DNA of 32,000 bases. Origin: Candidatus Nanopusillus sp. Lineage in GTDB: Archaea; Nanobdellota; Nanobdellia; Nanobdellales; Nanobdellaceae. The stretch spans positions 6,293 through 38,292 of the forward strand of contig JAPYVP010000005.1 of assembly GCA_028276785.1 (NCBI GenBank), in the 5' to 3' direction. A program made the position numbers and the translations under genes. The notes beneath the pieces are model-generated. The model was given only the letters and a program-made list of their open reading frames with translations, searched no databases and was not told the DNA's origin. Position 1 is the first letter of the stretch. The number at the start of each line of letters is the position of its first letter. Below are positions 1 to 15,615 of the stretch, piece by piece.

Positions 1-591
1 TTGTATGCTATATTTGTTATATTTATAGGATTATCTATTTCTATATTAAATACAATTAAACCATTGATAGTAAGCCAAATTTCAGCTTCTACTGTTCAAA
101 CATCTTTTAATTTCTTTTCTTCTTCAATAGATTATCCTTGGTTAAAATTTATTACAGCTTTATCAATAATTTTAGTAGGGATTTCATCATCAATTGTAAT
201 GGGTATTGCTGAAAGCGGAAAAATAAGATCTTCTGTAAAACATTTAGCAATAAATAATTTAATAGGACTGTTGTCCATAATAATATTTGTTTTACCATCT
301 TTTGTATCATTTAATTTGCAAGTTTTTCCGACAAATGCTTATATATACACCCCAATAAATATACAAATATATGGATATATTGATGCACAACCAATAACAA
401 ATGCTCCATTAGCAATATATGTAATAAATTCAACTGGAGACTATGTTTATCAAAATTTTCAAATATTACAGAATGGATACTATTCTCAGTCTATTACTTT
501 AAATAATACCGGTACATATATTATAGAAGCTATATTGGATTATAATGGTAAAAAATACGTACAAAAGCAGAGCATTAATGTAACAATATGA
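1..591 (+). CDS. Polytopic membrane protein, probably 5'-truncated by the window edge, with a C-terminal beta-rich extracellular domain; possibly the C-terminus of a FlaJ/TadC-type pilus platform protein
   Basis: Frame is open from nt 1. Three hydrophobic helices (YAIFVIFIGLSISIL, LKFITALSIILVGISSSIVMGIA, LIGLLSIIIFVLPSFV) precede ~100 aa of Y/N/T-rich beta-type sequence. Its stop overlaps the next start (ATGA, 588-591). The platform-protein idea rests only on context, since a pilin-like gene follows. Confidence 0.6.
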   Translation: MYAIFVIFIGLSISILNTIKPLIVSQISASTVQTSFNFFSSSIDYPWLKFITALSIILVGISSSIVMGIAESGKIRSSVKHLAINNLIGLLSIIIFVLPSFVSFNLQVFPTNAYIYTPINIQIYGYIDAQPITNAPLAIYVINSTGDYVYQNFQILQNGYYSQSITLNNTGTYIIEAILDYNGKKYVQKQSINVTI

Positions 592-1274
592 AGTCTCAAA
601 GTTGGATTGAAGTATTAATTACACTTGCTGTATTTTTATACATTATAATTTATATTTATCAGAGTATAGTTAGTGGAGTAGCACAGTATTCATCTGGATT
701 GTACAAAATGACTGAATATCAAAAATTATATACTAGTTCATTTTATTTTTCTCAATTCTATGATCCACGGCAAGTATATAATTATTTAAATTTTTCTTTT
801 TCATATTATTATGCCCCAAAAGTTATATTTTTGTCTACAAATCCATATATTTGTAACAATTGCATAGAATTTTTTTATAATACTAGTTCAAATAGTATAG
901 GAATAATACAGAGATCTTATATAAATGTATCATCAGTTTTGCAAGTTTACATATATGGATCAACACAGAATATTAGCATAATAAATAATTCAGCATATTA
1001 TAGTTGTTATAATCATCTAAGTTCATCTTTTTTTACTGTATATACAAGAACTTATTTATATTGTAATTTTAATTTAATTGGAAACTCTAGTATTTACATA
1101 AATACAAATGAAAAATTTTTAATTATAAATAATTATAATACTGTACTATATTTGTATAATGGAGATAAGATTGTTGGTCTTCCAAATATATTAATAAATA
1201 TTTATCCGACAGTACATTTAAATTATTTTCAATATTTTAATGGCTCTATAAATTATATATCTTTATATGGATAA
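588..1274 (+). CDS. Pilin-like secreted protein with a putative class III (prepilin-type) signal peptide
   Basis: N-terminus MKS/QSWIEVLITLAVFLYIIIYIY has a short charged n-region, a small residue, Gln at +1, Glu at +5 and a ~20-aa hydrophobic helix. The rest is Cys-containing, N-x-S/T-rich and beta-type. Translationally coupled to the upstream membrane protein. Confidence 0.6.
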   Translation: MKSQSWIEVLITLAVFLYIIIYIYQSIVSGVAQYSSGLYKMTEYQKLYTSSFYFSQFYDPRQVYNYLNFSFSYYYAPKVIFLSTNPYICNNCIEFFYNTSSNSIGIIQRSYINVSSVLQVYIYGSTQNISIINNSAYYSCYNHLSSSFFTVYTRTYLYCNFNLIGNSSIYINTNEKFLIINNYNTVLYLYNGDKIVGLPNILINIYPTVHLNYFQYFNGSINYISLYG

Positions 1275-1434: not shown

Positions 1435-1443
1435 TTTTATATA
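1435..1443 (+). promoter_or_regulatory. TATA-like box TTTTATATA for the surface-protein gene
   Basis: Centre lies ~27 nt upstream of ATG 1467. With no room for a leader or SD sequence, the mRNA is probably leaderless. Confidence 0.35.
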
Positions 1444-1466: not shown

Positions 1467-1868
1467 ATGGAGATAAAGAAGATATTATATTTTATTACAA
1501 TAAATTTTCTATTGTTGATTTCTGCGCCTAATATATATTCACAAGTAGGAGCAGTTGTTGTTGGAAGTAATAGTGCTGTAGCTAATAGTATAACGTTATC
1601 TACAGCAAATTTATATTATTGTGTTGCTTCTTCCACCGGTTCAACCCTTACTCCAAGTTTTAATGTAATGGTAAATAACGGAGGTTATGCAGTAATTGGA
1701 AATTCCAGTACAAATTCATGTTCATTTACTACTACAGCTACAAGTTATGTGATAGGTGGGGTTTCTGTAAATAACTATTCAGTTCCAGTTATTTTAGCTA
1801 CTTTTACAAATACATATACTGCAACAAGTACGGTAACAATTCCATTTACAATTTCTGGACAAAAATAA
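1467..1868 (+). CDS. Segment 1 (frame 3) of a frame-interrupted large secreted surface protein: Sec-type signal peptide plus the first S/T/N-rich beta module
   Basis: MEIKKILYFITINFLLLISAPNIYSQ has an n-region, h-region and small residues. Composition and motifs continue seamlessly in frame 1 after the AAA TAA stop at 1863-1868. Confidence 0.85.
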   Translation: MEIKKILYFITINFLLLISAPNIYSQVGAVVVGSNSAVANSITLSTANLYYCVASSTGSTLTPSFNVMVNNGGYAVIGNSSTNSCSFTTTATSYVIGGVSVNNYSVPVILATFTNTYTATSTVTIPFTISGQK

Positions 1869-3648
1869 TACAGTATTAATATTATTATCTTCGGGGGGAA
1901 CAAGGAATGGAGGTACTATTAGTGGAGTAACATTACCTAGTGGATGTTCACAATTATTTTTAACATCTTCTGGAACTGCAGCTAGTGTATATGCTGCAGT
2001 ATGTAATAAATTAGCTCCTGGTACTTATAGTATCTCATTTACTGTTAATCGTGGTGCAGGATCAACAGTATATGTTTCTGCATTAGTATTAGGATTTCCG
2101 GTATTCACCTTTAATATTACAGGACCCAACAGTATAAGTGTTTATACAAATTATAATAATTCAACAACAATATATGTAAATCAATTAACAGGAAATACTG
2201 CTTTACCAGTTACTTTATCCTGTTCAACAAATAGTAGTTATTTATCTTGTTTATTATCAAATACAACTGTTACTCCAAATGCATCAGTAACATTAACTGT
2301 TACTGCATCATCATCAATTACCCCAGGTACATATTCAGTAACAATTTCAGGTACGGCACCAAATGGTGCTACAAATTCTACTACTATAACAGTTAATGTA
2401 CAACAATTATATAATAATCCACAAATATATATTATATCTCCATCTAACAATTCAATATCAAACTATTATCAATTAAATATATCATTTTATACAAATTATC
2501 CAAATGTAAATGTAACAATAAATGGAAATACATATAGTATAAGTGTAACACCAGGTAATAATGTTATTCAATTAAATTATCAGAATTCATCATACAATTT
2601 ACCAGGATTGTATAATATTATACCAAATGGAGGAAATATTACAATACAATTATCAACATCAAATCCATTAGGACAAATAAATTCAACTGGAATATATGTT
2701 TATACATTACCCCCACCAATATTTAATGTATCATATGCATATCCCACACCATCGAATGGTACACAAGAAAATATATGGTTACTAGGAATTAATACAAATA
2801 TATATGATAATACCTTAGGTCAATATTATTGTCAAATACAATTCTTAAATCAAACAAGTAATCAATGGGTAACAATAGCAAATTCATGTTCAGATATGTT
2901 GTATAATGGAATATTGCAACAATATGCAAAATTAGATAGTAATGGATACTATTCCATATGGTATAGGGTATATTCATATAATAATTATGGATTATATCAA
3001 TATACAAATCCACAAGTAATATATATAGCGCAAAATGCATATAATGTATCGGTGGTAAATAATACATTAAGCAATACACAAATACAGGGGATAATAGATT
3101 CTGCAATTAATAATTCAATACCAGTAGTAGTATTCCCTCCAGGAGTATATTTAGTAAACTTAGTAATAGATCCACAAGGTAAAAATATAACATTATTGGG
3201 ACAAAATGCAATATTTGAACCTGCAAATCCCGGATTACCAGTTATAGATATAAAATCCTCAAATGTAACAATACAAAATATAAATATTAATACAAATCTA
3301 TTTGCAATAAATGTAAATAATGGTGTGTTGAACATAATAAATTCAAATATAAATTCGGGATTATTCGGAATAAATGTAAAAAATCCGTCAGTAGTAAATG
3401 TATATAATTCTACAATAAAGGGAAATATAGGATCTATATATGGTTATATACAAAATTCAACAATAAGCAATACCAATATACAATCTTCTGTATGGGGTGT
3501 GTATATTAATAATCCATATAATGTAATAATAGATAATTCAAACATAAATGGACAAATATTTGGAGTATATCTTGATGGAACTGCAATAAATAACACAATA
3601 AAGAACAGTAATATAATTTCTAAATATATTTGGAATAAGAATAAATAA
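1837..3648 (+). CDS. Segment 2 (frame 1) of the same surface protein: Ig-like/CARDB-like modules followed by a parallel beta-helix (PbH1/NosD-like) domain; the ORF track shows only 2608..3648
   Basis: I translated 1837-3648 codon by codon: 604 codons with no stop. The first canonical start in frame is TTG 2608. 1870-2607 encodes ...PGTYSISFTVNRG...CSTNSSYLSCLLSNTTVTPNASVTLTVTASSSITPGTYSVTISGTAPNG.... The beta-helix entry motif IPVVVFPPGVYLVNLVIDPQGKNITLLG is followed by ~22-aa NSxIxxxxFGIxV repeats. Confidence 0.85.
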   Translation, partial: QFHLQFLDKNNTVLILLSSGGTRNGGTISGVTLPSGCSQLFLTSSGTAASVYAAVCNKLAPGTYSISFTVNRGAGSTVYVSALVLGFPVFTFNITGPNSISVYTNYNNSTTIYVNQLTGNTALPVTLSCSTNSSYLSCLLSNTTVTPNASVTLTVTASSSITPGTYSVTISGTAPNGATNSTTITVNVQQLYNNPQIYIISPSNNSISNYYQLNISFYTNYPNVNVTINGNTYSISVTPGNNVIQLNYQNSSYNLPGLYNIIPNGGNITIQLSTSNPLGQINSTGIYVYTLPPPIFNVSYAYPTPSNGTQENIWLLGINTNIYDNTLGQYYCQIQFLNQTSNQWVTIANSCSDMLYNGILQQYAKLDSNGYYSIWYRVYSYNNYGLYQYTNPQVIYIAQNAYNVSVVNNTLSNTQIQGIIDSAINNSIPVVVFPPGVYLVNLVIDPQGKNITLLGQNAIFEPANPGLPVIDIKSSNVTIQNININTNLFAINVNNGVLNIINSNINSGLFGINVKNPSVVNVYNSTIKGNIGSIYGYIQNSTISNTNIQSSVWGVYINNPYNVIIDNSNINGQIFGVYLDGTAINNTIKNSNIISKYIWNKNK

Positions 3649-4201
3649 CGGAAATAATAATATTATAGTAAATAATAGTGTACAATCAAACATATTTGGA
3701 ATATATTTAACATCATCAGGAAATAATATAAAAAATGTTTATATAAAAGTAGGACAAGTATTTGGATTGTATATAACTCAACCAAATAACATAATAAATG
3801 TAACAACATATGGTGGATTGTTTGGATATTATTTAACAGGTAATGCAGCAAATATATCTTTATATAATTCACAATTGGGAATTGCAATATATGGAAGCGG
3901 ATATATAAATAATTTGACAACATCTACGGGAAGCGTAGACATATACTATAATAATTCACAAGGATTCATAAATAGTTTAAGTAGTATAATATATAATACA
4001 AAAGTAAATAATACATTATATAATTATTATGCAGGCATATCAATAATAGGAACTATAAATGGAAATATTACATTTATTAATTTGCCACCTGCTACTAGTT
4101 ATATTGTAGAAAGGATAGTAGCAAGTAATAGAAATATAATATCTACAAATAATACATTTATACCACAAGGATTTGGAAATTATCAACTATTTTATTCATA
4201 A
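3617..4201 (+). CDS. Segment 3 (frame 2) of the same surface protein: continuation of the beta-helix repeats and the C-terminal domain; the ORF track shows only 3767..4201
   Basis: Frame 2 is open from 3617. It reads NIFGIRINNGNNNIIVNNSVQSNIFGIYLTSSGNNIKNVYIKVGQVFGLYIT..., which is in register with the repeats of segment 2. Confidence 0.8.
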   Translation, partial: FLNIFGIRINNGNNNIIVNNSVQSNIFGIYLTSSGNNIKNVYIKVGQVFGLYITQPNNIINVTTYGGLFGYYLTGNAANISLYNSQLGIAIYGSGYINNLTTSTGSVDIYYNNSQGFINSLSSIIYNTKVNNTLYNYYAGISIIGTINGNITFINLPPATSYIVERIVASNRNIISTNNTFIPQGFGNYQLFYS

Positions 4202-4202
4202 A

Positions 4203-4220
4203 TTTTTTTAATAATTTTTT
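4203..4220 (+). terminator. Oligo-T tracts (T7 and T6) directly after the surface-protein stop
   Basis: AATTTTTTTAATAATTTTTTC. Archaeal RNA polymerase terminates at oligo-T runs. Confidence 0.3.
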
Positions 4221-4223
4221 CTT

Positions 4224-5018
4224 ATGAGTTTAGATACTTTAATATTAGCGGGAGGTTTTGCAAAGAGATTTAGACCATTATCAGATTATGTACCAAAACC
4301 ATTATTTCCAGTAGGCGGTGTACCTTTGATATATTATATAATAGAAAAAGCATTAGAAACTGGATCAGATGAAATAATTATATCTACAAATAAAAAATAT
4401 GAAAATCATTTTAGGCATATTCTAGCGTCATTATATTCTTTTTATGAACCATCTCAAATTGGAAAAATAAGATTGGTAATTGAACCATCAAGTTCTGAAG
4501 AAAATAAGCTTGGATCAATCGGTGGTTTACATTATGCAATAAAAGAGATGGGTATAAATAATAATCTATTAATATTGCTGGGAGATAATTTGTTTAGCTT
4601 TAATTTAAATAAAATAATTAAATTAGGAAATGAAAATAATTCTATAGCCTTAGCAATATATGATATAAAAAATTATGAGGATGCAAAAAATTATGGTGTA
4701 GTAAAATTAGAAGATAATATAATAAAGGAATTTTATGAAAAACCCCAAAATCCTCCATATACCACAATATCTACTGGAATATATTATATCCCAAAAGAAA
4801 AATTATATCTATTAGATGAATATATGAAGTCTAATTATAGTAAAGATTCTATGGGAAATTTCTTCGAATATTTAATAAAAAGGGGAGAAAAATTGTATGG
4901 ATATGTGTATGATGATGATAATGAATACTGGTTTGACATTGGTACGATAGAATCTTATCAAAGAGCAAATAATTTTGCAAATGAAAGAGGTTTATATAGA
5001 AGATGGATATGGCCATAA
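4224..5018 (+). CDS. Sugar-1-phosphate nucleotidyltransferase (NTP_transferase family)
   Basis: N-terminal LILAGGFAKRFRPLSDYVPKPLFPVGG matches the LAGGxGxRLxPLTxxxPKPL signature. GDNLF and GVV motifs follow. Confidence 0.8.
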   Translation: MSLDTLILAGGFAKRFRPLSDYVPKPLFPVGGVPLIYYIIEKALETGSDEIIISTNKKYENHFRHILASLYSFYEPSQIGKIRLVIEPSSSEENKLGSIGGLHYAIKEMGINNNLLILLGDNLFSFNLNKIIKLGNENNSIALAIYDIKNYEDAKNYGVVKLEDNIIKEFYEKPQNPPYTTISTGIYYIPKEKLYLLDEYMKSNYSKDSMGNFFEYLIKRGEKLYGYVYDDDNEYWFDIGTIESYQRANNFANERGLYRRWIWP

Positions 5019-5048
5019 ATAAAAGTTTTTCTTATAAATTATTTTTAG

Positions 5049-6824
5049 ATGATAAGATCTCCAATAATTGTTGTTTTAGGTCATGTTGGAGCTGGTAAAA
5101 CTTCTTTATTAGATAAGATTAGAAATACATCTTATGCAAAAAAAGAAGCTGGTGAAATGACCCAACATATTGGGGCTACGGAAGTATCAATTGATATAAT
5201 TAAGGAAATCTCAAAACCATTATTAAATTTGTTTAAATTTGACTTAAAAATCCCCTCTCTATTATTTATTGATACTCCAGGTCATGAAGTATTTAGTAAT
5301 TTAAGAAAAAGAGGGGGATCTGTTTCAGATTTAGCAATTATTGTTGTAGATATATTGGATGGTTTTCAGAAACAAACATATGAAGCAATAGAAATATGTA
5401 AGCAACTAAAAGTGCCTTTTTTAATTGCATTAAATAAAATAGATAAAATAGATGGATGGAAATCATATGAAAATAAACCATTTTTAGAAAGTATAAAATA
5501 CCAAGATCAAAAAGTAATAAATAAATTAGAAGAATATACATACAACATTGTGGCTAAATTATATGAATTGGGTTTTGATTCTGATAGATATGATAGAATA
5601 AAAGATTTTAGAAGACAGGTTGCGATAGTTCCAGTTTCTTCAAAAACTGGAGAAGGTATTCCAGATTTATTATTATTAATTGCTGGACTTTCTCAAAGAT
5701 ATTTAGAAGAAAAATTAAGAATAAATGTTGAAGGAAATGGAATTGGTGTAATTTTAGAAGTAAAGGAAGAAAAAGGTTTGGGTAGTGTAATAGATATGAT
5801 ATTATATGATGGTAAAATAAAAAAAGGTGATAAAATTGCATTTTTATCAAAAGATGGTATTAAAACAACAAAAGTAAAATTAATATTAAAACCTGTACCT
5901 TTAACAGATATTAGATTTGCTGGTAGAAATAAATTTAAAGAAATAGACGTAGCATACGCAGCAAGTGGTGTAAGGATATCTGCGGATGGATTAGATAATG
6001 CTCTACCAGGTTCTACAGTTTATGTATATAACGATGAAAAAGAATTAAAGGAAATAGAAAAAAAATTAAAAAAAGATATCGAAAACATAATATTTCAAAC
6101 TGATAAAGAAGGTATTATTGTTAAAGCAGATACTTTGGGATCTTTAGAAGTATTGGTAAAAATGTTAAAAGATAGGAATATTCCAATAAAAAAAGCAGAT
6201 ATAGGAGATATAAATAAGGAAGATGTAAATATAGCATTATCTATGAAGGAAAAATATCCACAATATTCTGTTATAGTTGGATTTAATATTGGGATAAATA
6301 AAAATGATGAAGAATATGTGAAATCTTCAAATATAAATTTAATAATATCAAATGTTATATATGATTTAATTGAAAAAATCGAGAAATATATTAATGATAT
6401 AAAATATAATAAAGAAAAAATATTAAAAGAATTGCCTCCAGTGGGGAAGATAAGAATATTAAAGGGAAATATATTTAGAAGATCAAATCCCGCAATTGTT
6501 GGAATTGAAGTTTTAGGAGGAGAAATAAGGAAGGATGTATATTTAATTAATTTAAATGGAAAAATAATTGGAAAAATTTTAGCAATACAAAAGGAGAAAA
6601 AGAATATGGATGTAGCTATAAAAAATGATAAGGTCGCTATATCCATAGATGATGCAATAGTTGGAAGAAATATATTTGAAGATGACATATTATATACCTT
6701 TATATCTGAAAATGATTATAGAAAATTTAAGGAAAATAAGGATCTCTTAAGTGATGAACAAAAAGAGATATTAAAAGAAATAGCAGGTATAATGAGAAAA
6801 GAAAATCCTGCCTGGGGGCTATAA
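5049..6824 (+). CDS. infB: Translation initiation factor aIF5B (IF2 family GTPase)
   Basis: G1 VLGHVGAGKTSLLDKIR, G3 DTPGHEVF, G4 LNKIDK, then the beta-barrel and C-terminal domains. The 591-aa length is typical. Confidence 0.95.
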   Translation: MIRSPIIVVLGHVGAGKTSLLDKIRNTSYAKKEAGEMTQHIGATEVSIDIIKEISKPLLNLFKFDLKIPSLLFIDTPGHEVFSNLRKRGGSVSDLAIIVVDILDGFQKQTYEAIEICKQLKVPFLIALNKIDKIDGWKSYENKPFLESIKYQDQKVINKLEEYTYNIVAKLYELGFDSDRYDRIKDFRRQVAIVPVSSKTGEGIPDLLLLIAGLSQRYLEEKLRINVEGNGIGVILEVKEEKGLGSVIDMILYDGKIKKGDKIAFLSKDGIKTTKVKLILKPVPLTDIRFAGRNKFKEIDVAYAASGVRISADGLDNALPGSTVYVYNDEKELKEIEKKLKKDIENIIFQTDKEGIIVKADTLGSLEVLVKMLKDRNIPIKKADIGDINKEDVNIALSMKEKYPQYSVIVGFNIGINKNDEEYVKSSNINLIISNVIYDLIEKIEKYINDIKYNKEKILKELPPVGKIRILKGNIFRRSNPAIVGIEVLGGEIRKDVYLINLNGKIIGKILAIQKEKKNMDVAIKNDKVAISIDDAIVGRNIFEDDILYTFISENDYRKFKENKDLLSDEQKEILKEIAGIMRKENPAWGL

Positions 6825-7292
6825 TTTTTTAATTCTATGAAATTTTCTATTATATTCTCTATTCGTGACTTCTAAAACATGAGATGGTTTTGATAATGAA
6901 ATTATAGAATCTGTATCAAAGAAATCTTTTAATATATTTTCAATACTCTCCTTATCTATATTTATGTTTTGACCGGGCAATCTTGAATAAATTATATTTA
7001 TTGTAATATCTTTAGGGATTTTAAAAAAATGTAAAGGCTCTAATTTTAATAAATTAAATATATTAAATCTTTTATTTGAGAAAAAAGAGAAAAATAATGG
7101 AAAATTATCAATAAAAGTTCTAGGAATAAATCCAAAATAGAACGGATATGATACTTTTAAATTTATGTAAGTATTTATATTCAAATCAAAATCTATTACA
7201 TTTATTGCATTTGTATCTGGCAAATTTAATATTATTCCATTAAAAAAATTTGGAAATTCATCACTTTGTTCGATATGTAATAATTCCCTCAT
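6819..7292 (-). CDS. Family I inorganic pyrophosphatase-like protein with degenerate catalytic motifs (the ORF track extends it to 7376)
   Basis: SYPFYFGFIPRTF matches the PPase YPxxYGxIPxT core. The expected (E/D)DGDPxD after it reads IDNFPLF. ATG 7292 (MRELLH...) is preferred because a minus-strand TTTTATATAA (7313-7322) sits ~26 nt upstream, and the longer form would overlap the rps6e start. Confidence 0.55.
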   Translation of the reverse strand: MRELLHIEQSDEFPNFFNGIILNLPDTNAINVIDFDLNINTYINLKVSYPFYFGFIPRTFIDNFPLFFSFFSNKRFNIFNLLKLEPLHFFKIPKDITINIIYSRLPGQNINIDKESIENILKDFFDTDSIISLSKPSHVLEVTNREYNRKFHRIKKL

Positions 7293-7312
7293 AATAAATT
7301 TAAGATACTTTG

Positions 7313-7322
7313 TTATATAAAA
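7313..7322 (-). promoter_or_regulatory. TATA-like box TTTTATATAA (minus strand) for the PPase-like gene
   Basis: Centre is ~26 nt upstream of ATG 7292. Confidence 0.35.
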
Positions 7323-7365
7323 ATTTTCATTAAAAAATAAAAATATTTTCCTTAATTGATATAAA

Positions 7366-7758
7366 ATGGTAAACAAGAGAAAAGAAATTATATTTAAAGT
7401 TGTAGTATCAGATCCAAAGACTGGAAAGTCTATTCAGGTGCAAACAAAAGATGAATCTTTAATAGGTAAAAAAATTGGAGATATAATTGATGGATCAATA
7501 GTTAATTTAGACGGATATAAATTAAAGATAACTGGAGGTTCTGGATTTGAGGGTGCTCCAATGGTAAGTTATGTTGAAGGAATGAATAAAAAATATGTAT
7601 GGTGGTATGATAAAAGTAAAAAGGTAAGAGTTAAAAAATTGGTTAGGGGGAATACGATCTCTCCAGAAATTGTGCAAATAAATACTAAAATAGAAGAATA
7701 TGGAAATAAAGATTTTAATCAACTATATGAAGAATTTAAATCTCAAAAATCTCAATGA
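7366..7758 (+). CDS. rps6e: 30S ribosomal protein S6e
   Basis: KVVVSDPKTGKSIQVQ...GYKLKITGGSGFEGAPM is the characteristic S6e sequence. 130 aa. Confidence 0.9.
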   Translation: MVNKRKEIIFKVVVSDPKTGKSIQVQTKDESLIGKKIGDIIDGSIVNLDGYKLKITGGSGFEGAPMVSYVEGMNKKYVWWYDKSKKVRVKKLVRGNTISPEIVQINTKIEEYGNKDFNQLYEEFKSQKSQ

Positions 7759-8951
7759 TAATTTCTTTAGGAATAGAAGCTACTGCTCACACTTATTCAA
7801 TTGGAATTGTTGATGAGAGCGGGAATATATATTCTAACGAGAGGATAATATATAAAAGCGAGAAAGGAGGGATACATCCAAGAGAGGCTGCAGAATTACA
7901 TTCAAAGGAGAGTATTAATATTTTAAGAAATTCTGTATGGAAGGCTGGATTTATTTTTAAGAAAATAAATGGCAAATTTTATATTGTAGATGCATTATAT
8001 GAAATAAAAAATAAATTAGAAGGATCAAAAGAAATATTTTTTGATGAACCATGGAATAGAAGAAGATATATAATATATAATAATATTAGAATATGGATTG
8101 AAAATAATAAAATAGTTTCTGATAATAAAGAATTAGAAAATAATTTAAATTCATATATAAATAATTTAAATAATTTTGAAAGAAAAATAAATTTAATTTC
8201 ATATTCTGCAGGACCTGGTTTATATCCAACATTGGTTCAAGCATATTTTAGCGGTAAATTATTTTCTAAGATATTTAATTCAAATTTAATTGGAGTAAAT
8301 CATTTAATAGCACATGTAGAAATTGTTAAATTATATAATAAATTTACAGATCCTTTAATTTTGCTAGTTTCGGGAGCTAATACAATGTTATTATCATTTG
8401 AAGGAAATAAATACAGAATTGTCGGAGAGACTTTAGATATGGGTGTGGGAAACTTTTTAGATAAGGTTGGCAGATTATTAAATATTGAATTTCCAGCAGG
8501 TCCAAAGATTGAAGAATTATCAAAAAAAGGAAAAAATCTAATAAAATTGCCATATTCTGTTAAAGGAATGGATATACAATTGGGGGGAGTATATACATAT
8601 ATAAAAAATCTAATAAAAAAGAAAAATGTTAATATAAATGATTTGGCTTATTCTATTCAAGAATATGTATTTTCAATGTTAGCAGAAATATCTGAGAGAG
8701 GATTATCAATATTAGATAAAAAAGAATTTGGATTAACTGGTGGGGTTGCTGTAAATAAAAGATTACAAGAAATTTTATATTTAATGTGTAATGAAAGAAA
8801 TGTAAAATTTGGAACTGTTCCTCTGGATTTAGGAAATGATAATGGTGCAATGATTGCATGGACTGGAATATTATGGTATAAAAATAATATGAATATAATT
8901 GATGGGATTAACCCATACTGGAGACCTGAGGATATTGAATATAAAATTTAA
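7755..8951 (+). CDS. kae1: tRNA N6-adenosine threonylcarbamoyltransferase Kae1 (KEOPS catalytic subunit) with a ~75-aa internal insertion
   Basis: LGIEATAHT, GGIHPREAAELH, SAGPGL, GVNHLIAHVE (HxxxH metal site), VSGANT, GETLDMGVGN, PAGPKIEEL, TGGVAVNKRL and GNDNGAMIAWTG are all present. ATGA overlap with rps6e. Confidence 0.9.
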   Translation: MIISLGIEATAHTYSIGIVDESGNIYSNERIIYKSEKGGIHPREAAELHSKESINILRNSVWKAGFIFKKINGKFYIVDALYEIKNKLEGSKEIFFDEPWNRRRYIIYNNIRIWIENNKIVSDNKELENNLNSYINNLNNFERKINLISYSAGPGLYPTLVQAYFSGKLFSKIFNSNLIGVNHLIAHVEIVKLYNKFTDPLILLVSGANTMLLSFEGNKYRIVGETLDMGVGNFLDKVGRLLNIEFPAGPKIEELSKKGKNLIKLPYSVKGMDIQLGGVYTYIKNLIKKKNVNINDLAYSIQEYVFSMLAEISERGLSILDKKEFGLTGGVAVNKRLQEILYLMCNERNVKFGTVPLDLGNDNGAMIAWTGILWYKNNMNIIDGINPYWRPEDIEYKI

Positions 8952-8979
8952 ATGTTGTATTGTGAATCATTATATTATA

Positions 8980-9114
8980 ATGGTGGACCAGAACACCTTG
9001 CTGGAATTAATAAAATTGAGAAGCAATGCAAGAAGAAAGAATTTGGGAAGTAATACAAAAGCAATAAGGAATTTAAGAAAGAAAATGGCCAGAGAAAATA
9101 TTGTTGTGAGATGA
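8980..9114 (+). CDS. rpl29: 50S ribosomal protein L29 (uL29), unusually short (44 aa from ATG 8980; 50 aa if GTG 8962)
   Basis: LLELIKLRSNARRKNLGSNTKAIRNLRKKMARENIVV resembles the L29 helix-turn-helix (..LR.Q...G.LEN...IR..RK.IARI.TV). It occupies the conserved archaeal position directly upstream of SUI1 and Rpp29. The 8899 start in the ORF track lies inside kae1 and is discounted. Confidence 0.6.
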   Translation: MVDQNTLLELIKLRSNARRKNLGSNTKAIRNLRKKMARENIVVR

Positions 9115-9425
9115 AAAAGAAACTTTTCTCAGGTCTTCCAATAGATTTAGAGAATACAACAAAGGAAATAGAAAAGGAGTTTCAGAAGATTATTGTAAGG
9201 GCTGAAAGAAGAAGTTATGGAAAAATTGTTACAATTTTAGAAGGTATAGATCCGGCTATTGCAAAAGAAACATTGAAAAGTTTAAAACAAAAGTTGGGTT
9301 GTGGAGGAACATATAAAGATAATTTAATAGAATTGCAGGGAGATCATAGAGAAAAAATAAAAAAATTATTACTGGATTTGGGTTTTAAGGAAGAGAATAT
9401 AGAAATATCTAATGAAATTGAATAA
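9111..9425 (+). CDS. sui1: Translation initiation factor aSUI1 (eIF1 homologue)
   Basis: IVRAERRSYGKIVTILEGID...LKQKLGCGGTYKDNLIELQGDHREKIKKLL is a canonical SUI1 domain. ATGA overlap with L29. Confidence 0.9.
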   Translation: MKKKLFSGLPIDLENTTKEIEKEFQKIIVRAERRSYGKIVTILEGIDPAIAKETLKSLKQKLGCGGTYKDNLIELQGDHREKIKKLLLDLGFKEENIEISNEIE

Positions 9426-9690
9426 ATATTTTTTATCTTATGAATTTATTGGATTAAATGTGGAAGTGTATGATTGTAAGATAAAAAGTTTAGCAGGTAT
9501 TTATGGAGAGATAATAGATGAAACAAAAAATACATTTTATATAAAGAGTAAAGATAAAGTATACATAGTTCCTAAGAGTATATCGAAATTTATTTTTTAT
9601 TTCAAAGATTATTCAATTTTTTTAGATGGAAAATTAATTAATATGAGGCCGTGGGAAAGATTAAAAGTAAATGTAAAGAAAAAGGTATAA
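9412..9690 (+). CDS. rnp1: RNase P protein component 1 (Rpp29/Pop4)
   Basis: LIGLNVEVYDCKIKSLAGIYGEIIDETKNTFYIKSKDK...VPK...F matches the Rpp29 Sm-like barrel pattern. Conserved position after SUI1. Confidence 0.75.
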   Translation: MKLNKYFLSYEFIGLNVEVYDCKIKSLAGIYGEIIDETKNTFYIKSKDKVYIVPKSISKFIFYFKDYSIFLDGKLINMRPWERLKVNVKKKV

Positions 9691-9692
9691 GG

Positions 9693-9700
9693 TTTATATA
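9693..9700 (+). promoter_or_regulatory. TATA-like box TTTATATA for the pilin gene
   Basis: Centre is ~26 nt upstream of ATG 9723, consistent with a leaderless mRNA. Confidence 0.35.
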
Positions 9701-9722
9701 TTACTAAAATTTTAAATATATT

Positions 9723-10223
9723 ATGAAAATAAAGGCTGTATCCCCCCTGATTGCAACAATTATATTAATCGCCTTAACAGTGGCTTTAGGTGCAATTATA
9801 GTTGGATGGGCAAGAAATTATGTTAGTAGTGAAGTCTCAAATCTGGGTGCTCAAGTTCAAATACTACAGGTAGTTTATAATAATTCAAATGGCAATATAG
9901 CAATTTTAGTTCAAAATATAGGATCTACGCAATTAGTTGGATATAATCTTTTAGTAGAATTTTCTTCTATTAACGGAAAACGTGAGAAATGTCCTTTGGT
10001 TTCAAGTAGTAATGATACAAAATATTTGGCATGTTATATTTATAATATAACAGATTCTTCGTCTACTACTTCATTAATAAATGGTACAATACCTCAAAAT
10101 TCACTATTTCTAATAAATATGACAGTCAATAAGGATAGTTTTGGAATATCTTCTTTAACCGGTTCTACTATTTATATATATTATTCCAAAAACCAAATAT
10201 CTGAGGGATATACATTATCGTGA
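9723..10223 (+). CDS. Archaeal type IV pilin-like protein (Pilin_N / class III signal peptide)
   Basis: MKIKAVSPLIATIILIALTVALGAIIVGWA matches the K/R-A-V-S-P-[VL]-I-A-T...I(A/T)LTV archaeal pilin N-terminal signature. The C-terminal domain is beta-type with N-x-S/T sequons. Confidence 0.8.
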   Translation: MKIKAVSPLIATIILIALTVALGAIIVGWARNYVSSEVSNLGAQVQILQVVYNNSNGNIAILVQNIGSTQLVGYNLLVEFSSINGKREKCPLVSSSNDTKYLACYIYNITDSSSTTSLINGTIPQNSLFLINMTVNKDSFGISSLTGSTIYIYYSKNQISEGYTLS

Positions 10224-10277
10224 TTTACTTTTTAGTAGTTAATTAAAAGAATAAATGACATCTATAAATATTTTTAT

Positions 10278-11453
10278 ATGGAAATTAAATCTGCAAAAGC
10301 AAGGGTTATTCTAAATTCTAGAGGAGATCCAACATTAGAAATTGAAATAAATGGTTATTCAGAAGCCGCTCCAGAGGGGGCAAGCAAAGGGTCTGGAGAA
10401 GTTCCATATTTAGATCCTAAAAAAGCTGCTGAATTGTTCAATAATGAATTGGTAGATTTTCTTAAAACATTTGATATAATAACTTTAGATGATTTAAAAG
10501 AATTTGAAAGTGAATTTGAATCAATTGGTGGAATAAAGAGATATGGAGGTAATACATTAATTGCTACTGAATATGCTATATTAAGAGCATGGTCTCATTA
10601 TGAAGGAAAACCTATTTACAAATTTTTTAATAAAAATCCAAAAATAAATATAAGAATATTGGCAAATGTTGTTGGTGGTGGTGCGCATTCAAGAGGTAGA
10701 AGTACAAATATTCAAGAATTCTTAGTTTCTCCAGATACAGATAATTTACCTTTATCCATTTTTATTGCATCCTATATACATAAATTATTGGGGAAGAGAT
10801 TAGAATTGTTGGATGATAAATTTTTATATGGAAGGAATGATGAAGGTGCATGGACAACATCGCTTGAAGATGAAACAATATTTAATATTATAAAAATGGT
10901 TTTTGATGAGGTTAAGATTGATTATAATATAAAAGTTGATCTTGGAATTGATTTTGCTGCAAGTCAATTATATAAAGATAACGCATATAAATATAAAAAT
11001 AAAGTATTTTCTAGAGAAGATCAAATAAAATATGTAAAATTTCTTATAGATACATATGATTTATTTTATGTTGAAGATCCGTTATATGAAGAAGATTTTG
11101 AAGGATTTGCAGAGATAAATAATAGTACGAAAAGCTTAATTGTTGGAGACGATTTAACAGTAACAAATGTAGAAAGAATAAAAAAATCTTTAATATATAA
11201 ATCAATTAAGGGTGTTATAATAAAACCAAATCAAATAGGTTCTGTTGTTAAGGCATATGAAGTTGTAAAATTCTGTAAAGAAAACGGTCTAGTACCAATA
11301 TTATCTCATAGATCCGGAGAAACAGAAAGTAATATACTAGCTCATTTAGCAGTTGGATTTGAAGTTCCATTTGTGAAGTTTGGAATTATAAATGGAGAGA
11401 GAATTGCAAAATTAAATGAATTAATTAGAATATATGAAAGCTTAAATAAATAA
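10278..11453 (+). CDS. eno: Enolase (2-phosphoglycerate dehydratase), compact 391-aa form
   Basis: ARVILNSRGDPTLEIEI, PEGASKGSGE, DFAASQ, VEDP, VGDDLTVTN, IKPNQIGS, SHRSGETES and KFG...ERIAKLNELIRI are all present, so the metal and catalytic residues are conserved. Confidence 0.95.
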   Translation: MEIKSAKARVILNSRGDPTLEIEINGYSEAAPEGASKGSGEVPYLDPKKAAELFNNELVDFLKTFDIITLDDLKEFESEFESIGGIKRYGGNTLIATEYAILRAWSHYEGKPIYKFFNKNPKINIRILANVVGGGAHSRGRSTNIQEFLVSPDTDNLPLSIFIASYIHKLLGKRLELLDDKFLYGRNDEGAWTTSLEDETIFNIIKMVFDEVKIDYNIKVDLGIDFAASQLYKDNAYKYKNKVFSREDQIKYVKFLIDTYDLFYVEDPLYEEDFEGFAEINNSTKSLIVGDDLTVTNVERIKKSLIYKSIKGVIIKPNQIGSVVKAYEVVKFCKENGLVPILSHRSGETESNILAHLAVGFEVPFVKFGIINGERIAKLNELIRIYESLNK

Positions 11454-11714
11454 CTTGAACCATTTTTTATATTCTTCAGGTACCTCAATTAATCCTAAAT
11501 TAACTAGTGTATCCAATATTCCCCATATATAATTTTCTAATTCAAATGCTTTTACGAAATCTTTATTTTCATAAAAATATTTCATGTCATTATAATAAGA
11601 TATAACAAATTTTTCAAACCTGTTATCTAAAAATCTTATGTTTTTAAATATTAATTCTAGTTTTTTATATTCTCTGTCCAGATAATAGAAAAACTCTTCT
11701 TCATTTATTCTCAT
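11442..11714 (-). CDS. Small helical protein, DUF357-like
   Basis: VISYYNDMKYFYENKDFVKAFELENYIWGILDTLVNLGL fits the DUF357 pattern A..Y..DA.YF.e.gD...A.....YA.GwLDa...lG. 90 aa. Confidence 0.5.
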   Translation of the reverse strand: MRINEEEFFYYLDREYKKLELIFKNIRFLDNRFEKFVISYYNDMKYFYENKDFVKAFELENYIWGILDTLVNLGLIEVPEEYKKWFKLFI

Positions 11715-11721
11715 TTATATA
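11714..11721 (+). promoter_or_regulatory. TATA-like box TTTATATA for gene 11743, abutting or overlapping the divergent gene's start codon
   Basis: Centre is ~26 nt upstream of ATG 11743. Confidence 0.3.
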
Positions 11722-11734
11722 CCTTATTTAAAAA

Positions 11735-11743
11735 TTTAATAAA
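11735..11743 (-). promoter_or_regulatory. TATA-like box TTTATTAAA (minus strand) for gene 11714, abutting the divergent gene's start codon
   Basis: Centre is ~25 nt upstream of the minus-strand ATG at 11714. Confidence 0.3.
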
Positions 11744-12456
11744 TGGATCTTAAAGATATATTATCTAAATTCAACGTTGAAGAAATATTATATTTTGAAG
11801 AAAATTATGATTTACAATATAAATATTTAAAACTTTTATATAAGAATATAAAAAATCAAAATTTATTTCTAAAGATTATCATAATAAATTCTTTATTAGC
11901 ATTTCAATTATCATATAAAGGAGAAAAATTTTGGAAAATATTTTCCATATACTTTTCTAAACATAATAATGATGATATATATGATAATTTTCTATCTTTC
12001 ATAAATTTATATAATAAGAGATATAAGGAAATAAAAATAAAAAGATTAAATAGAATTTATAATTGGATAAAGAATAAAGATTTATTAATTTATAAAGATG
12101 ATCTAGTTAAGTTTAATTTAGAAATTGCGGAAGTAATGGGACAAAATATTTATGATAAAACAATAGTATTTTCAACAAAAATTTATGGTTATGGATTAAG
12201 AATTATTGGATATAAAATAATATTTCCATTTGAAATATTCATACCAATAGATAATAGAATTGGAAAAATTAGTAAAGATAGAAATTATTGGATAAGATTA
12301 TCAAAAGAAGTAAACATACCATTATTACACATAGATTCTTTAGTATGGATTACTATGGGATTGGATAACGATAAAATAGAAAGAATAAGAAATGAAGAAC
12401 TTAAAAATAAAATTAAATTATTAAAAAATTATCTAAATAATATTGTTAATAATTAA
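11743..12456 (+). CDS. Probable archaeal 8-oxoguanine DNA glycosylase (AGOG-type N-glycosylase/DNA lyase)
   Basis: NSLLAFQLSYKGEKFWKIFSIYFS, KTIVFSTKIYGY and IPIDNRI resemble the AGOG family blocks as I remember them (alvsYqL..kGE..W..F..yF; KTiVFa.KM.gY; iPvD.R). The size, 237 aa, fits. Confidence 0.5.
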   Translation: MDLKDILSKFNVEEILYFEENYDLQYKYLKLLYKNIKNQNLFLKIIIINSLLAFQLSYKGEKFWKIFSIYFSKHNNDDIYDNFLSFINLYNKRYKEIKIKRLNRIYNWIKNKDLLIYKDDLVKFNLEIAEVMGQNIYDKTIVFSTKIYGYGLRIIGYKIIFPFEIFIPIDNRIGKISKDRNYWIRLSKEVNIPLLHIDSLVWITMGLDNDKIERIRNEELKNKIKLLKNYLNNIVNN

Positions 12457-12897
12457 TAGACCATCTGTAATATATAATATATCTCTAGCAATTTTTTCTT
12501 CATTTATTATTTTTGAGTCGAAATCCGATCCAATTTTTCCATTTCCAACGAATATTTTTTCAGTTGGAGATAGCAAATATTTGTCATACTTTAATATAAA
12601 TTCTTCAGATTTCTTTAATAAATATCCTAAATATATTAGTTGATTTAGACCATAAATTTTATTTTTATCACTTAAATCATTAAAATTATATATATACAAA
12701 TTAATATTACTTTCTAATAATTTTATCTTATTGTCTTTTATTAATAATGTGGCTTGCCAATTCTTTTTATAATCTTTATAATTCAATGATGTTGTTGTTT
12801 TATTATTATATTCTAATGTCATCTTTTCCTTTTCCTTTTTTATTGTTACTTTACCTTCTTCTAAAGATAGCTTTATCCCTATACCCAGTATATCCAT
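12433..12897 (-). CDS. Hypothetical protein (154 aa)
   Basis: Long ORF in a compact region with coding-like composition. Its 3' end overlaps the convergent gene by 24 nt. No family recognised. Confidence 0.55.
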   Translation of the reverse strand: MDILGIGIKLSLEEGKVTIKKEKEKMTLEYNNKTTTSLNYKDYKKNWQATLLIKDNKIKLLESNINLYIYNFNDLSDKNKIYGLNQLIYLGYLLKKSEEFILKYDKYLLSPTEKIFVGNGKIGSDFDSKIINEEKIARDILYITDGLLIINNII

Positions 12898-12962
12898 AAA
12901 CTATTTATAGAAAATGAGATATAAAAAGATTATTAAAAATTTACTAAGTAATCTATATATAT

Positions 12963-13035
12963 GCCGCCGTAGCTCAGTTGGTAGAGCAGCCGGCTGTTAA
13001 CCGGCAGGTCGTGGGTTCAAGTCCCACCGGCGGCG
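12963..13035 (+). tRNA. tRNA-Asn (anticodon GUU), no intron, CCA not encoded
   Basis: Hand-folded: acceptor GCCGCCG/CGGCGGC, D stem GCTC/GAGC, anticodon stem GCCGG/CCGGC, loop CTGTTAA, variable AGGTC, T arm GTGGG-TTCAAGT-CCCAC, discriminator G. Confidence 0.95.
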
Positions 13036-13902: not shown

Positions 13903-13923
13903 TAAAAAATATTAATAAAAAAA

Positions 13924-15572: not shown

Positions 15573-15615
15573 AACTATTATATAGTTAAGAGAAAGACTT
15601 ATAAGTATGACAAAG

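What the first reader, a model, noticed from the sequence alone, without database searches (positions are those of the whole stretch)
1837..2607. About 770 nt of stop-free coding sequence with no start codon, missing from the ORF track
Frame 1 is open for 604 codons, from 1837 to 3648. The ORF track reports only 2608..3648, because TTG 2608 is the first canonical start in that frame. My codon-by-codon translation of 1870-2607 gives TVLILLSSGGTRNGGTISGVTLPSGCSQLFLTSSGTAASVYAAVCNKLAPGTYSISFTVNRGAGSTVYVSALVLGFPVFTFNITGPNSISVYTNYNNSTTIYVNQLTGNTALPVTLSCSTNSSYLSCLLSNTTVTPNASVTLTVTASSSITPGTYSVTISGTAPNGATNSTTITVNVQQLYNNPQIYIISPSNNSISNYYQLNISFYTNYPNVNVTINGNTYSISVTPGNNVIQLNYQNSSYNLPG. This is typical Ig-like/CARDB-like surface-protein sequence with the same composition as ORF 1467..1868. 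In DNA this AT-rich, TAA/TAG/TGA are very frequent in non-coding frames, so a run of this length cannot be chance. The only plausible start and signal peptide for it lie in a different frame, at ATG 1467.
Basis: seen in the sequence. Interest (0 to 1): 0.7.

Follow-up and report, generated by a model that had tools for sequence, protein, structure and literature searches.

The report
Surface-protein gene broken by two frameshifts
The start-less coding stretch is the middle of one roughly 910-residue secreted surface-protein gene of a Nanopusillus-like nanoarchaeon. In this assembly two single extra A bases split the gene into three reading frames, so this is an ordinary interrupted gene (or an assembly error), not a new kind of gene.

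Summary
Frame 1 is stop-free from 1837 to 3648, and its first ATG/GTG/TTG is TTG 2608. The chance probability of 257 stop-free codons is about 1e-9.

The stretch is the central part of one gene, 1467..4201. Relatives in Nanopusillus and Nanobsidianus carry it as a single ORF of 904-1272 aa, starting with the same signal peptide as ATG 1467.

The window differs from every relative by two 1-nt insertions:
- A5 instead of A4 at 1861-1865.
- One extra A at 3622-3624.

The repaired protein has 910 aa: signal peptide, Ig-like beta-sandwiches, then a parallel beta-helix.

The shifts are not conserved. A contig of the same strain, with 0 mismatches over 2334 nt, lacks the second extra A. dN/dS is 0.2-0.3, as for intact alleles. 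So this is not programmed recoding.

It is either a very recent loss-of-function allele (about 0.5) or an assembly or sequencing error (about 0.4). Frameshifted alleles of this gene recur in other lineages and independent assemblies, while the neighbouring aIF5B stays intact. That slightly favours real mutation. Interest is low to moderate.

The parts
1435..1443 (+). TTTTATATA, a TATA-box-like element about 28 nt upstream of ATG 1467. It would suit a leaderless or short-leader archaeal transcript. This is inferred, not tested.
   Evidence: Read directly from the sequence. The interpretation rests on general knowledge of archaeal promoters.
1467..1865 (+). Piece A (frame 3): the true start of the gene. 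It covers residues 1-133, including the N-terminal signal peptide (about residues 1-25, nt 1467-1541) and the first beta-sandwich.
   Evidence: It is collinear with the N-termini of intact orthologues. The most hydrophobic 19-mer is at residues 6-24. tblastn of the repaired protein gives 100% over residues 1-133.
1861..1865 (+). Junction 1: an A5 run carrying one extra A. All 13 other distinct loci have A4: GGAC-AAAAT(A/G)A.
   Evidence: DNA alignments and a pattern count. A metagenome scan that allowed A4 or A5 found 6 contigs, all with A4.
1866..1868 (+). Premature TAA that ends frame 3 after 133 codons. It is a consequence of junction 1.
1867..3621 (+). Piece B (frame 1), residues 134-718 of the repaired protein. 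The reported start-less stretch 1837/1870-2607 is its first 247 codons, which encode beta-sandwich domains with Cys pairs.
   Evidence: pN/pS against the intact allele L021 is 0.28 for 1867-2607 and 0.19 for 2608-3621. The AF2 model has pLDDT 79-93 over residues 30-310.
3622..3624 (+). Junction 2: TCT-AAA-TAT carrying one extra A. All 16 other distinct loci are 1 nt shorter here, including L020, a contig of the same strain with 0 mismatches.
3646..3648 (+). TAA that ends frame 1. It is a consequence of junction 2.
3623..4201 (+). Piece C (frame 2), residues 719-910 plus the stop: the end of the parallel beta-helix and the C-terminal region. The ORF track shows only 3767..4201, which starts at a TTG.
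   Evidence: It is 100% identical to P0029 across the junction. pN/pS against L021 is 0.02.
3454..3874 (+). Pfam Beta_helix (PF13229) match, residues 663-802 of the repaired protein. It runs across junction 2.
   Evidence: E=3.7e-8, 33.6 bits against a cut-off of 25.9. The coordinates are converted from residue numbers.

Best explanation
Window 1467..4201 is one gene for a secreted, probably glycosylated, cell-surface protein of about 910 aa. The organism is a Nanopusillus/Nanobsidianus-type nanoarchaeon. The protein consists of a signal peptide, several Ig-like beta-sandwich domains, a right-handed parallel beta-helix and a C-terminal region.

In this sequence the gene carries two single-A insertions, A4->A5 at 1861-1865 and one extra A at 3622-3624. 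These move the reading frame from 3 to 1 and then from 1 to 2. The 'start-less ORF' 1837-2607 is simply the part of the gene downstream of the first insertion.

As written, translation from ATG 1467 stops at TAA 1866 and yields a 133-residue fragment. The rest has no signal peptide of its own and would not be exported.

I take the insertions to be real, very recent loss-of-function mutations that segregate in the population next to the intact allele. This gene is a fast-evolving, apparently dispensable host-interaction or surface gene that is repeatedly knocked out in this group.

Shown: the gene architecture, the two insertions, their absence from all relatives, and the lack of relaxed selection. 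Inferred: that the insertions exist in the cells rather than only in the assembly, and the role of the protein.
For: Single-ORF orthologues:
- The orthologues are single ORFs with the same N-terminus and the same gene neighbourhood: T2SSF/FlaJ-like genes, a 228-aa gene, this gene, an NTP-transferase and aIF5B.

The two insertions:
- The two extra A bases are the only gaps in 8325 aligned nt against the closest full-length relative, L021 (97.7% identical, intact 910-aa P0030).
- All 13 other loci at junction 1 and all 16 at junction 2 lack them.

Evidence against random sequencing error:
- There are no indels in 11.8 kb against L001.
- aIF5B has 22 A-runs of 5 or more, against 4 in this gene, yet it is intact here and in L010 and L022.
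- Eleven indels were found in this gene across three assemblies and 0 in aIF5B (Poisson P about 8e-4).

Frameshifted alleles of the same gene recur and are reproduced in independent assemblies:
- L010 (NCBI MAG) and L017 (JGI contig, 99.8% identical) share their frameshifts.
- 144-aa C-terminal ORFs were called on at least 9 contigs from at least 4 sequence lineages in JGI, ENA and NCBI.

Agreement with the literature:
- Jarett et al. 2018 (PMC6142677) found the highest non-synonymous SNP densities in hypothetical cell-surface proteins and a FlaJ/TadC homologue of Yellowstone Nanoarchaeota.
Against: - The frameshifted ORFs of the window are on record for only one contig, of 38,292 nt; the JGI/IMG and NCBI entries are the same contig.
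- L020, from JGI metagenome 3300036468, is identical to window 2771-5105 except that it lacks the extra A at junction 2.
- There is no sign of relaxed constraint. dN/dS is 0.21-0.27 against the full-length orthologues (0.11 against the partial L002), compared with 0.26-0.38 between the other full-length alleles. The window's own branch has 7 synonymous and 5 non-synonymous changes. The repaired frame has no stop codon.
- Two neutral indels arising while the flanks gained only about 2 substitutions in 11.8 kb is itself improbable.
- This gene is a place where assemblies break: the other assembly has contig ends at window 2771 and 4979.
Confidence: 0.5

Rival explanations
1. Assembly or sequencing artefact. 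The organism's gene is intact (910 aa, like P0030 and P0029), and the two extra A bases were introduced when this contig was built. The cause could be indel-bearing reads or low-coverage graph paths in a strain-heterogeneous region.
For: - A contig of the same strain, L020, has 0 mismatches over 2334 nt and is intact at junction 2.
- The frameshifted ORFs are seen on a single contig only.
- Both changes are +1 A in A-runs.
- Selection is not relaxed and the repaired frame has no stop.
- The other assembly fragments exactly in this gene: contig ends at 2771 and 4979, with a 127-nt overlap between L020 and L001.
- Another MAG contig, L022, has indels in this gene and also in the neighbouring NTP-transferase, which suggests that some assemblies of these populations are indel-prone.
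- It is known that many apparent pseudogenes can be technical artefacts (abstract of PMC11017572).
Against: - Both indels of the window fall in this one gene. There are 0 gaps in 11.8 kb against L001 and no others in 8.3 kb against L021. If placement were random over the roughly 20 kb compared, P would be about 0.02.
- A3 and A5 are short runs, and the far more A-run-rich aIF5B is untouched.
- Frameshifts in this gene in other lineages are reproduced by independent assemblies, so real disrupted alleles do exist.
Confidence: 0.4
2. Programmed recoding. The full-length protein is made from the frameshifted mRNA by +1 ribosomal frameshifting. Both zero-frame ORFs end in AAA-TAA, the Euplotes-type +1 site. 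Transcriptional slippage on the A-runs is the alternative route.
For: - Both interrupted frames end ...AAA TAA, and both shifts are +1.
- A +1 shift at 1863-1868 would give ...SGQK-NTVL..., only one residue different from the orthologues' ...SGQN-NTVL....
- The downstream pieces show purifying selection.
Against: - The shifts are not conserved in any of the 13 and 16 other loci, including the same strain.
- AAA_TAA is simply the commonest stop context in the shifted frame of this Asn-rich gene: 19% of random insertion positions, so both by chance is about 3.6%.
- At junction 2 the conserved rung NIFGIRIN (F721, G722 and I723 are nearly invariant) is encoded in frame 2 upstream of the stop. A shift at AAA-TAA would therefore replace it with KYIWNKNK.
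- There is no unusual RNA structure at either site (z = -0.6 and -1.4).
- A5 and A3 are far shorter than the runs of roughly 9 or more A bases known to support transcriptional slippage (established knowledge from endosymbiont studies, not tested here).
Confidence: 0.04
3. Separate genes. 1837/2608..3648 would be an independent gene with a non-canonical or internal start, and 1467..1868 and 3767..4201 would be separate small genes.
For: The ORF callers of JGI and NCBI annotated 133-, 346- and 144-aa ORFs on the source contig.
Against: - Homologues are collinear single ORFs across all three pieces.
- No homologue starts at the equivalent of 2608 unless its contig is also frameshifted.
- The 247 codons upstream of 2608 are conserved with pN/pS 0.28.
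- The pieces cut through a continuous, confidently modelled run of beta-strands and through the beta-helix.
- Pieces B and C have no signal peptide.
Confidence: 0.02

Closest known systems
Intact orthologues: the 910-aa P0030 (JGI 3300045867), the 904-aa P0008, the 'putative secreted protein' of Candidatus Nanobsidianus stetteri (P0012, 909 aa), and the hypothetical proteins of Candidatus Nanopusillus acidilobi (for example Nps_01900, P0001, 1209 aa)
   Same: Protein identity is 79-97% over the full length. They share the signal peptide, the domain order, and the neighbours: two T2SSF/FlaJ-like genes and a 228-aa gene upstream, then an NTP-transferase and aIF5B downstream.
   Different: They are single uninterrupted ORFs, while the window has two +1 A insertions. 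Length varies from 904 to 1272 aa, apparently through the number of ~100-aa beta-sandwich repeats.
Frameshift-interrupted genes (young pseudogenes) in bacterial and archaeal genomes, and their look-alikes caused by assembly error
   Same: The reading frame is broken by single-base indels relative to intact orthologues, and the fragments are called as separate small ORFs or left uncalled.
   Different: There is no decay beyond the two indels (dN/dS 0.2-0.3, no stop codons). The state is therefore very young or artefactual.
Phase-variable (contingency) surface-protein genes switched by slippage in homopolymer tracts, for example in Neisseria, Haemophilus, Campylobacter and Mycoplasma
   Same: It is a surface protein. 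The frame changes are +/-1 in A-runs. Assemblies of one strain differ by one A at such runs: window against L020, and L010 against L017.
   Different: The runs are only 3-7 nt long rather than the roughly 7-8 or more typical of contingency tracts. The affected sites differ between lineages and include non-homopolymer indels. There is no dedicated switch tract.
Programmed +1 ribosomal frameshifting (bacterial prfB; Euplotes AAA-TAA/TAG sites)
   Same: The direction is +1, and there is an AAA-TAA motif at the end of both interrupted frames.
   Different: The shifts are not conserved. The motif is expected by chance in this composition. No stimulatory element was found. The ancestral frame changes upstream of the stop at junction 2.

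Membership tests
Nanopusillaceae secreted beta-helix surface-protein orthologue group (unnamed hypothetical proteins) | Full-length collinear similarity, including the N-terminal signal peptide | tested here: met
   The repaired 910-aa protein is 85-97% identical over 98-100% of its length to P0008, P0012 and P0030.
Nanopusillaceae secreted beta-helix surface-protein orthologue group (unnamed hypothetical proteins) | Conserved gene neighbourhood (T2SSF x2, 228-aa gene, this gene, NTP-transferase, aIF5B) | tested here: met
Right-handed parallel beta-helix proteins (Pfam PF13229 Beta_helix) | Score above the Pfam gathering threshold | tested here: met
   33.6 bits against 25.9, E=3.7e-8, residues 663-802. 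The AF2 model shows a long run of short beta-strands over residues ~553-840.
   There is no CARDB hit at E<=1. The only matches are sub-threshold: RibLong (E=0.058) and Wzt_C (E=0.078). NCBIfam rib_alpha has E=0.053, below its cut-off.
   The AF2 model of residues 30-370 is all-beta with pLDDT about 66-93. The best Foldseek PDB hits are tandem Ig/FN3 ectodomains and bacterial adhesin Ig arrays (E down to 1.5e-8, low TM as expected for multi-domain chains).
Programmed +1 ribosomal frameshift site | Frameshift conserved in orthologues | tested here: not met
   All 13 other loci at junction 1 and all 16 at junction 2 are in frame, including the same strain.
Programmed +1 ribosomal frameshift site | Shift-prone codon followed by a slow or stop codon | tested here: inconclusive
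   AAA-TAA is present at both frame ends, but this is the commonest context (19%) after any +1 insertion in this gene.
Programmed +1 ribosomal frameshift site | Stimulatory RNA element | tested here: not met
   Fold z-scores are -0.6 and -1.4.
Programmed +1 ribosomal frameshift site | Full-length product observed | not testable with these tools
   This needs proteomics.
Pseudogene (decaying gene) | Reading frame disrupted relative to intact orthologues | tested here: met
Pseudogene (decaying gene) | Relaxed selection (dN/dS towards 1, stop codons, further lesions) | tested here: not met
   dN/dS is 0.21-0.27 against the full-length orthologues (0.11 against the partial L002). pN/pS is 0.28, 0.19 and 0.02 in the downstream pieces. 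The repaired frame has no stop.
Pseudogene (decaying gene) | Lesions present in the organism's DNA (reads, independent assemblies) | not testable with these tools
   No reads are available. The only overlapping independent contig, L020, lacks the junction 2 insertion.
Phase-variable contingency locus | Long homopolymer or simple-repeat tract within the ORF or its promoter | tested here: not met
   The runs are A5 and A3. The gene has only 2 A-runs of 6 or more.
Phase-variable contingency locus | Tract-length polymorphism within one strain | tested here: inconclusive
   The window and L020 differ by one A at 3622-3624. L010 and L017 differ at an A7/A6 run. Errors cannot be told apart from polymorphism.

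The most novel reading that the evidence does not exclude
Knock-out alleles of this host-facing surface-protein gene arise again and again by small indels. They coexist with intact alleles in natural Nanopusillus populations, giving a population-level on/off variation of a candidate attachment or recognition protein. It might be driven by host or virus recognition, and it works without a dedicated switch tract. The window would be one such freshly switched-off allele. A far less likely reading (about 3-4%) is Euplotes-like +1 frameshifting at AAA-TAA in an archaeon.
Probability: 0.25. Interest if true: 0.45.

Novelty: new member of a known kind. Interest (0 to 1): 0.22.

Why it matters
For annotation: 1467..4201 should be treated as one interrupted gene (or corrected to one 910-aa ORF), not as three small ORFs plus unexplained coding-like sequence. 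One source even labels the 144-aa tail 'fructose-1,6-bisphosphatase/inositol monophosphatase family enzyme'.

For biology: the gene sits next to FlaJ/TadC-like pilus-assembly genes. It belongs to the class of exposed proteins reported to evolve fastest in Yellowstone Nanoarchaeota. If the recurrent frameshifted alleles are real, it is a candidate for a dispensable, variable host-interaction factor of these obligate ectosymbionts. It is not evidence for a new translation mechanism.

Tried and rejected
1. Exact look-ups of the window's 133-aa and 346-aa ORFs in the contig index found nothing. The cluster look-up later showed they are on record for a single 38,292-nt contig whose DNA I could not fetch, so the source sample and its reads stay unknown.
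2. The metagenome scan for junction 1 (A4 or A5 allowed) returned only A4 contigs and none from the window's own population. No independent test of junction 1 in the same strain was possible.
3. Programmed +1 frameshifting at AAA-TAA was rejected for lack of conservation, chance expectation and the lack of RNA structure.
4. Transcriptional slippage and classical phase variation were rejected because the A-runs are too short and the sites differ between lineages.
5. Stop-codon reassignment was rejected because the pieces are in different frames and the orthologues differ by indels, not by sense codons at the stops.
6. A paralogue elsewhere in the window that could compensate was not found. Relatives do have a second copy elsewhere in the genome (L005 and L007).
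7. Sequence searches against PDB and NCBIfam gave no family assignment.
8. The Rfam scan found only tRNAs.
9. I tried to tell an old pseudogene from a young one for L010 using terminal-branch N/S. The value was 2.18, against 2.0 for the intact L012, which is not informative.
Full report
**Observation**

Window frame 1 is free of stop codons from 1837 to the TAA at 3646-3648, which is 603 sense codons. Its first ATG/GTG/TTG is TTG 2608 and its first ATG is 96 codons further on. The window has 24% G+C, and 7.8% of all trinucleotides are stops. The mean open run is therefore about 13 codons, and 257 start-less, stop-free codons have a chance probability of about 1e-9.

All other gene-sized open runs in the window have a start codon within 19 codons of the upstream stop. 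The single other exception is 3617..4201 (50 start-less codons, no ATG at all), directly downstream.

**What it is**

The window comes from a nanoarchaeon of the Nanopusillus/Nanobsidianus group. Its aIF5B and 228-aa proteins are identical to proteins recorded from JGI and NCBI Nanopusillus-type assemblies. All homologues of the gene are from Candidatus Nanopusillus, Candidatus Nanobsidianus, Nanobdella and related MAGs.

I joined 1467..1865 (frame 3), 1867..3621 (frame 1) and 3623..4198 (frame 2) into a 910-aa protein. A search with it found 26 homologues. The full-length ones are single ORFs of 904-1272 aa:
- P0008, 904 aa, 92% identical
- P0012, 909 aa, 'putative secreted protein' of N. stetteri, 85% identical
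- P0001, N. acidilobi Nps_01900, 1209 aa
- P0030, 910 aa, 96.7% identical, found later

All of them start M(G/E)IK(K/R)ILYF..., like ATG 1467. All read '...SGQN(N/D/E)TVLIL...' across the first junction and '...NSNI(I/M)SNIFGI(R/K)INNG...' across the second.

The neighbourhood is conserved: two T2SSF (FlaJ/TadC-like) genes and a 228-aa gene upstream, then a sugar nucleotidyltransferase and aIF5B downstream. In the window a tRNA-Lys also lies upstream.

**The lesions**

DNA alignments show that the window differs from every relative by one extra A at each junction.
- Junction 1: GGAC-AAAAA-TAAT in the window against GGAC-AAAA-T(A/G)A in 13 other distinct loci.
- Junction 2: TCT-AAA-TATATTTGG in the window against a sequence 1 nt shorter in 16 other distinct loci.

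A scan of JGI metagenome contigs with a pattern that allowed either A4 or A5 found six contigs, all with A4. Against the closest full-length relative (L021, 97.7% identical over 8325 nt), these two A bases are the only gaps.

**The protein**

- Pfam finds a right-handed beta-helix region at residues 663-802, above threshold, and it straddles junction 2.
- An AlphaFold2 model built with the 26-sequence alignment has mean pLDDT 71.5. It is all-beta, with confident beta-sandwich strands from residue 30 to about 370, followed by a long beta-helix-like run.
- Junction 1 (residues 133/134) lies in a short loop between two strands within a region of pLDDT about 87-92. Junction 2 (residue 718) lies between rungs of the helix.
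- Foldseek against PDB returns tandem Ig/FN3 ectodomains and bacterial adhesin Ig arrays.
- No CARDB or other curated family is matched by sequence.
- The only strongly hydrophobic segment is N-terminal. There are four closely spaced Cys pairs and 34 N-x-S/T sequons.
- Together these features fit an exported, glycosylated surface protein (inference).
- It is not the S-layer protein predicted for N. acidilobi, which is Nps760 (PMC4935971).

**How it works as written**

Translation from ATG 1467 ends at TAA 1866 after 133 residues. Pieces B and C have no export signal, and the first canonical start in frame 1 is 247 codons into piece B. The locus as sequenced therefore encodes a knocked-out gene, unless the extra A bases are not really there.

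**Real mutation, artefact or recoding?**

*Recoding.* Both interrupted frames end AAA-TAA and both shifts are +1, which recalls Euplotes-type frameshift sites. Several results argue against it:
- AAA_TAA is the commonest stop context after any +1 insertion in this Asn-rich gene: 19%, so both by chance is about 3.6%.
- The shifts are absent from all relatives.
- At junction 2 the conserved rung NIFGIRIN is encoded in the new frame upstream of the stop.
- No unusual RNA structure is present.
- A5 and A3 are too short for transcriptional slippage.

I put recoding at about 4%.

*Evidence for an artefact.*
- L020, a contig from JGI metagenome 3300036468, equals window 2771-5105 with 0 mismatches, except that it lacks the extra A of junction 2. 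L001, from the same metagenome, equals window 4979-16824 with 2 mismatches and no gap.
- The window's frameshifted ORFs are on record for only one 38,292-nt contig.
- Constraint is not relaxed. dN/dS is 0.21-0.27 against the full-length orthologues, compared with 0.26-0.38 between the other full-length alleles. pN/pS against L021 is 0.28 for the start-less part, 0.19 for 2608-3621 and 0.02 for piece C. The window's own branch has 7 synonymous and 5 non-synonymous changes.
- The other assembly breaks at 2771 and 4979, so this is a difficult, strain-variable region.

*Evidence for a real mutation.*
- The window has no other indel in about 20 kb that could be compared.
- aIF5B has five times as many A-runs of 5 or more (22 against 4) and is intact.
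- Frameshifted alleles of this same gene occur in other lineages. L010 (an NCBI MAG) has six single-base indels while its downstream genes are intact. L017, an independent JGI contig of the same strain (99.8% identical), shares those indels that it covers, except at one A7/A6 run.
- L022, from a third MAG, has three indels and a 1.17-kb internal deletion.
- 144-aa C-terminal ORFs, the signature of a frameshift in the preceding ~150-270 nt, were called on at least 9 contigs of at least 4 sequence lineages from JGI, ENA and NCBI.
- Across three assemblies there are 11 indels in this gene and none in aIF5B (P about 8e-4). Selection sorting real mutations would produce this pattern; random error would not.

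I weigh these as about 0.5 for a real, very young allele and about 0.4 for an artefact. Only the reads can decide.

**Comparison with what is known**

The gene belongs to an unnamed family of Nanopusillaceae 'hypothetical' or 'putative secreted' proteins. The phenomenon is an ordinary frameshift-interrupted gene.

The context fits Jarett et al. 2018 (PMC6142677). They found the highest non-synonymous SNP densities of Yellowstone Nanoarchaeota in hypothetical cell-surface proteins and a FlaJ/TadC homologue. Those are the kinds of genes that sit side by side here.

It resembles phase-variable surface genes only loosely, because there is no dedicated repeat tract and the sites are scattered.

**Verdict**

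Novelty: a new member of a known kind. Interest is low. The one point worth following is the recurrence of disrupted alleles of this gene across lineages.

Noticed in passing
L010 220-2946 (JBMSAQ010000023.1, MAG Nanopusillus-CON-C-r01) and L017 (JGI Ga0080008_161923): The orthologue in another lineage carries six single-base indels, several outside homopolymers, and is read in five frame segments. The downstream NTP-transferase, aIF5B and S6e genes are intact. An independent JGI contig, 99.8% identical, shares the indels it covers except at one A7/A6 run.
   Followed up: partly
L022 1-1388 and 1412-2193 (JBMSBH010000093.1): A third MAG contig has this gene with a 1.17-kb internal deletion between two copies of a 13-nt repeat (window 1711-1723 and 2879-2891) plus three single-base indels. 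It also has a frameshift in the neighbouring NTP-transferase gene, so this assembly may be indel-prone in general.
   Followed up: partly
Protein cluster of window 3767..4201 (P0035-P0049): 144-aa ORFs starting at the same TTG were called on at least 9 contigs from at least 4 sequence lineages (JGI, ENA, NCBI). Further truncated forms of 194 and 290 aa also occur. The C-terminal part of this gene is therefore cut off from the rest in many assemblies. In contrast, all 15 listed members (of 22) of the neighbouring gene's cluster are full length, at 228 aa.
   Followed up: partly
Window 3767-4201; P0038 and P0039: JGI/IMG names the 144-aa tail fragment 'fructose-1,6-bisphosphatase/inositol monophosphatase family enzyme'. 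Nothing found here supports this name: the sequence is the end of a beta-helix surface protein.
   Followed up: no
Window 2771 and 4979-5105: In JGI metagenome 3300036468 the same population is assembled into contigs that end at window 2771 and 4979, with a 127-nt overlap between L020 and L001. This suggests assembly-graph branching, and so strain variation, in and just after this gene.
   Followed up: partly
Orthologues P0001-P0017; window about 2080-2400: Orthologue length varies from 904 to 1272 aa, apparently in steps of about 100 aa, through different numbers of a repeated beta-sandwich module ('...FSIQGPSSI...TVTPNASVTLTV...GTYSVT...'). The window has the short form.
   Followed up: no
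Window 1-1274: Upstream lie the C-terminal part of a 418-aa T2SSF (FlaJ/TadC-like) membrane protein and a conserved 228-aa protein with an N-terminal hydrophobic segment. Together with the surface protein they may form a pilus or attachment-related cluster.
   Followed up: no
Window 11440-11532 (-): ARAGORN calls a 93-nt tRNA-Leu(UAG) here. Rfam reported only the other two tRNAs at its gathering threshold. The tRNA overlaps the end of the enolase ORF (10278..11453) and most of the ORF 11442..11714, which lies on the same (-) strand and which JGI calls as a DUF357 gene.
   Followed up: no
Window 6819-7376 (-): The mechanical ORF is 185 aa, starting at a TTG, whereas the JGI gene call for the identical region is 157 aa. 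The start is uncertain, and either version overlaps the 3' end of aIF5B by a few bases.
   Followed up: no
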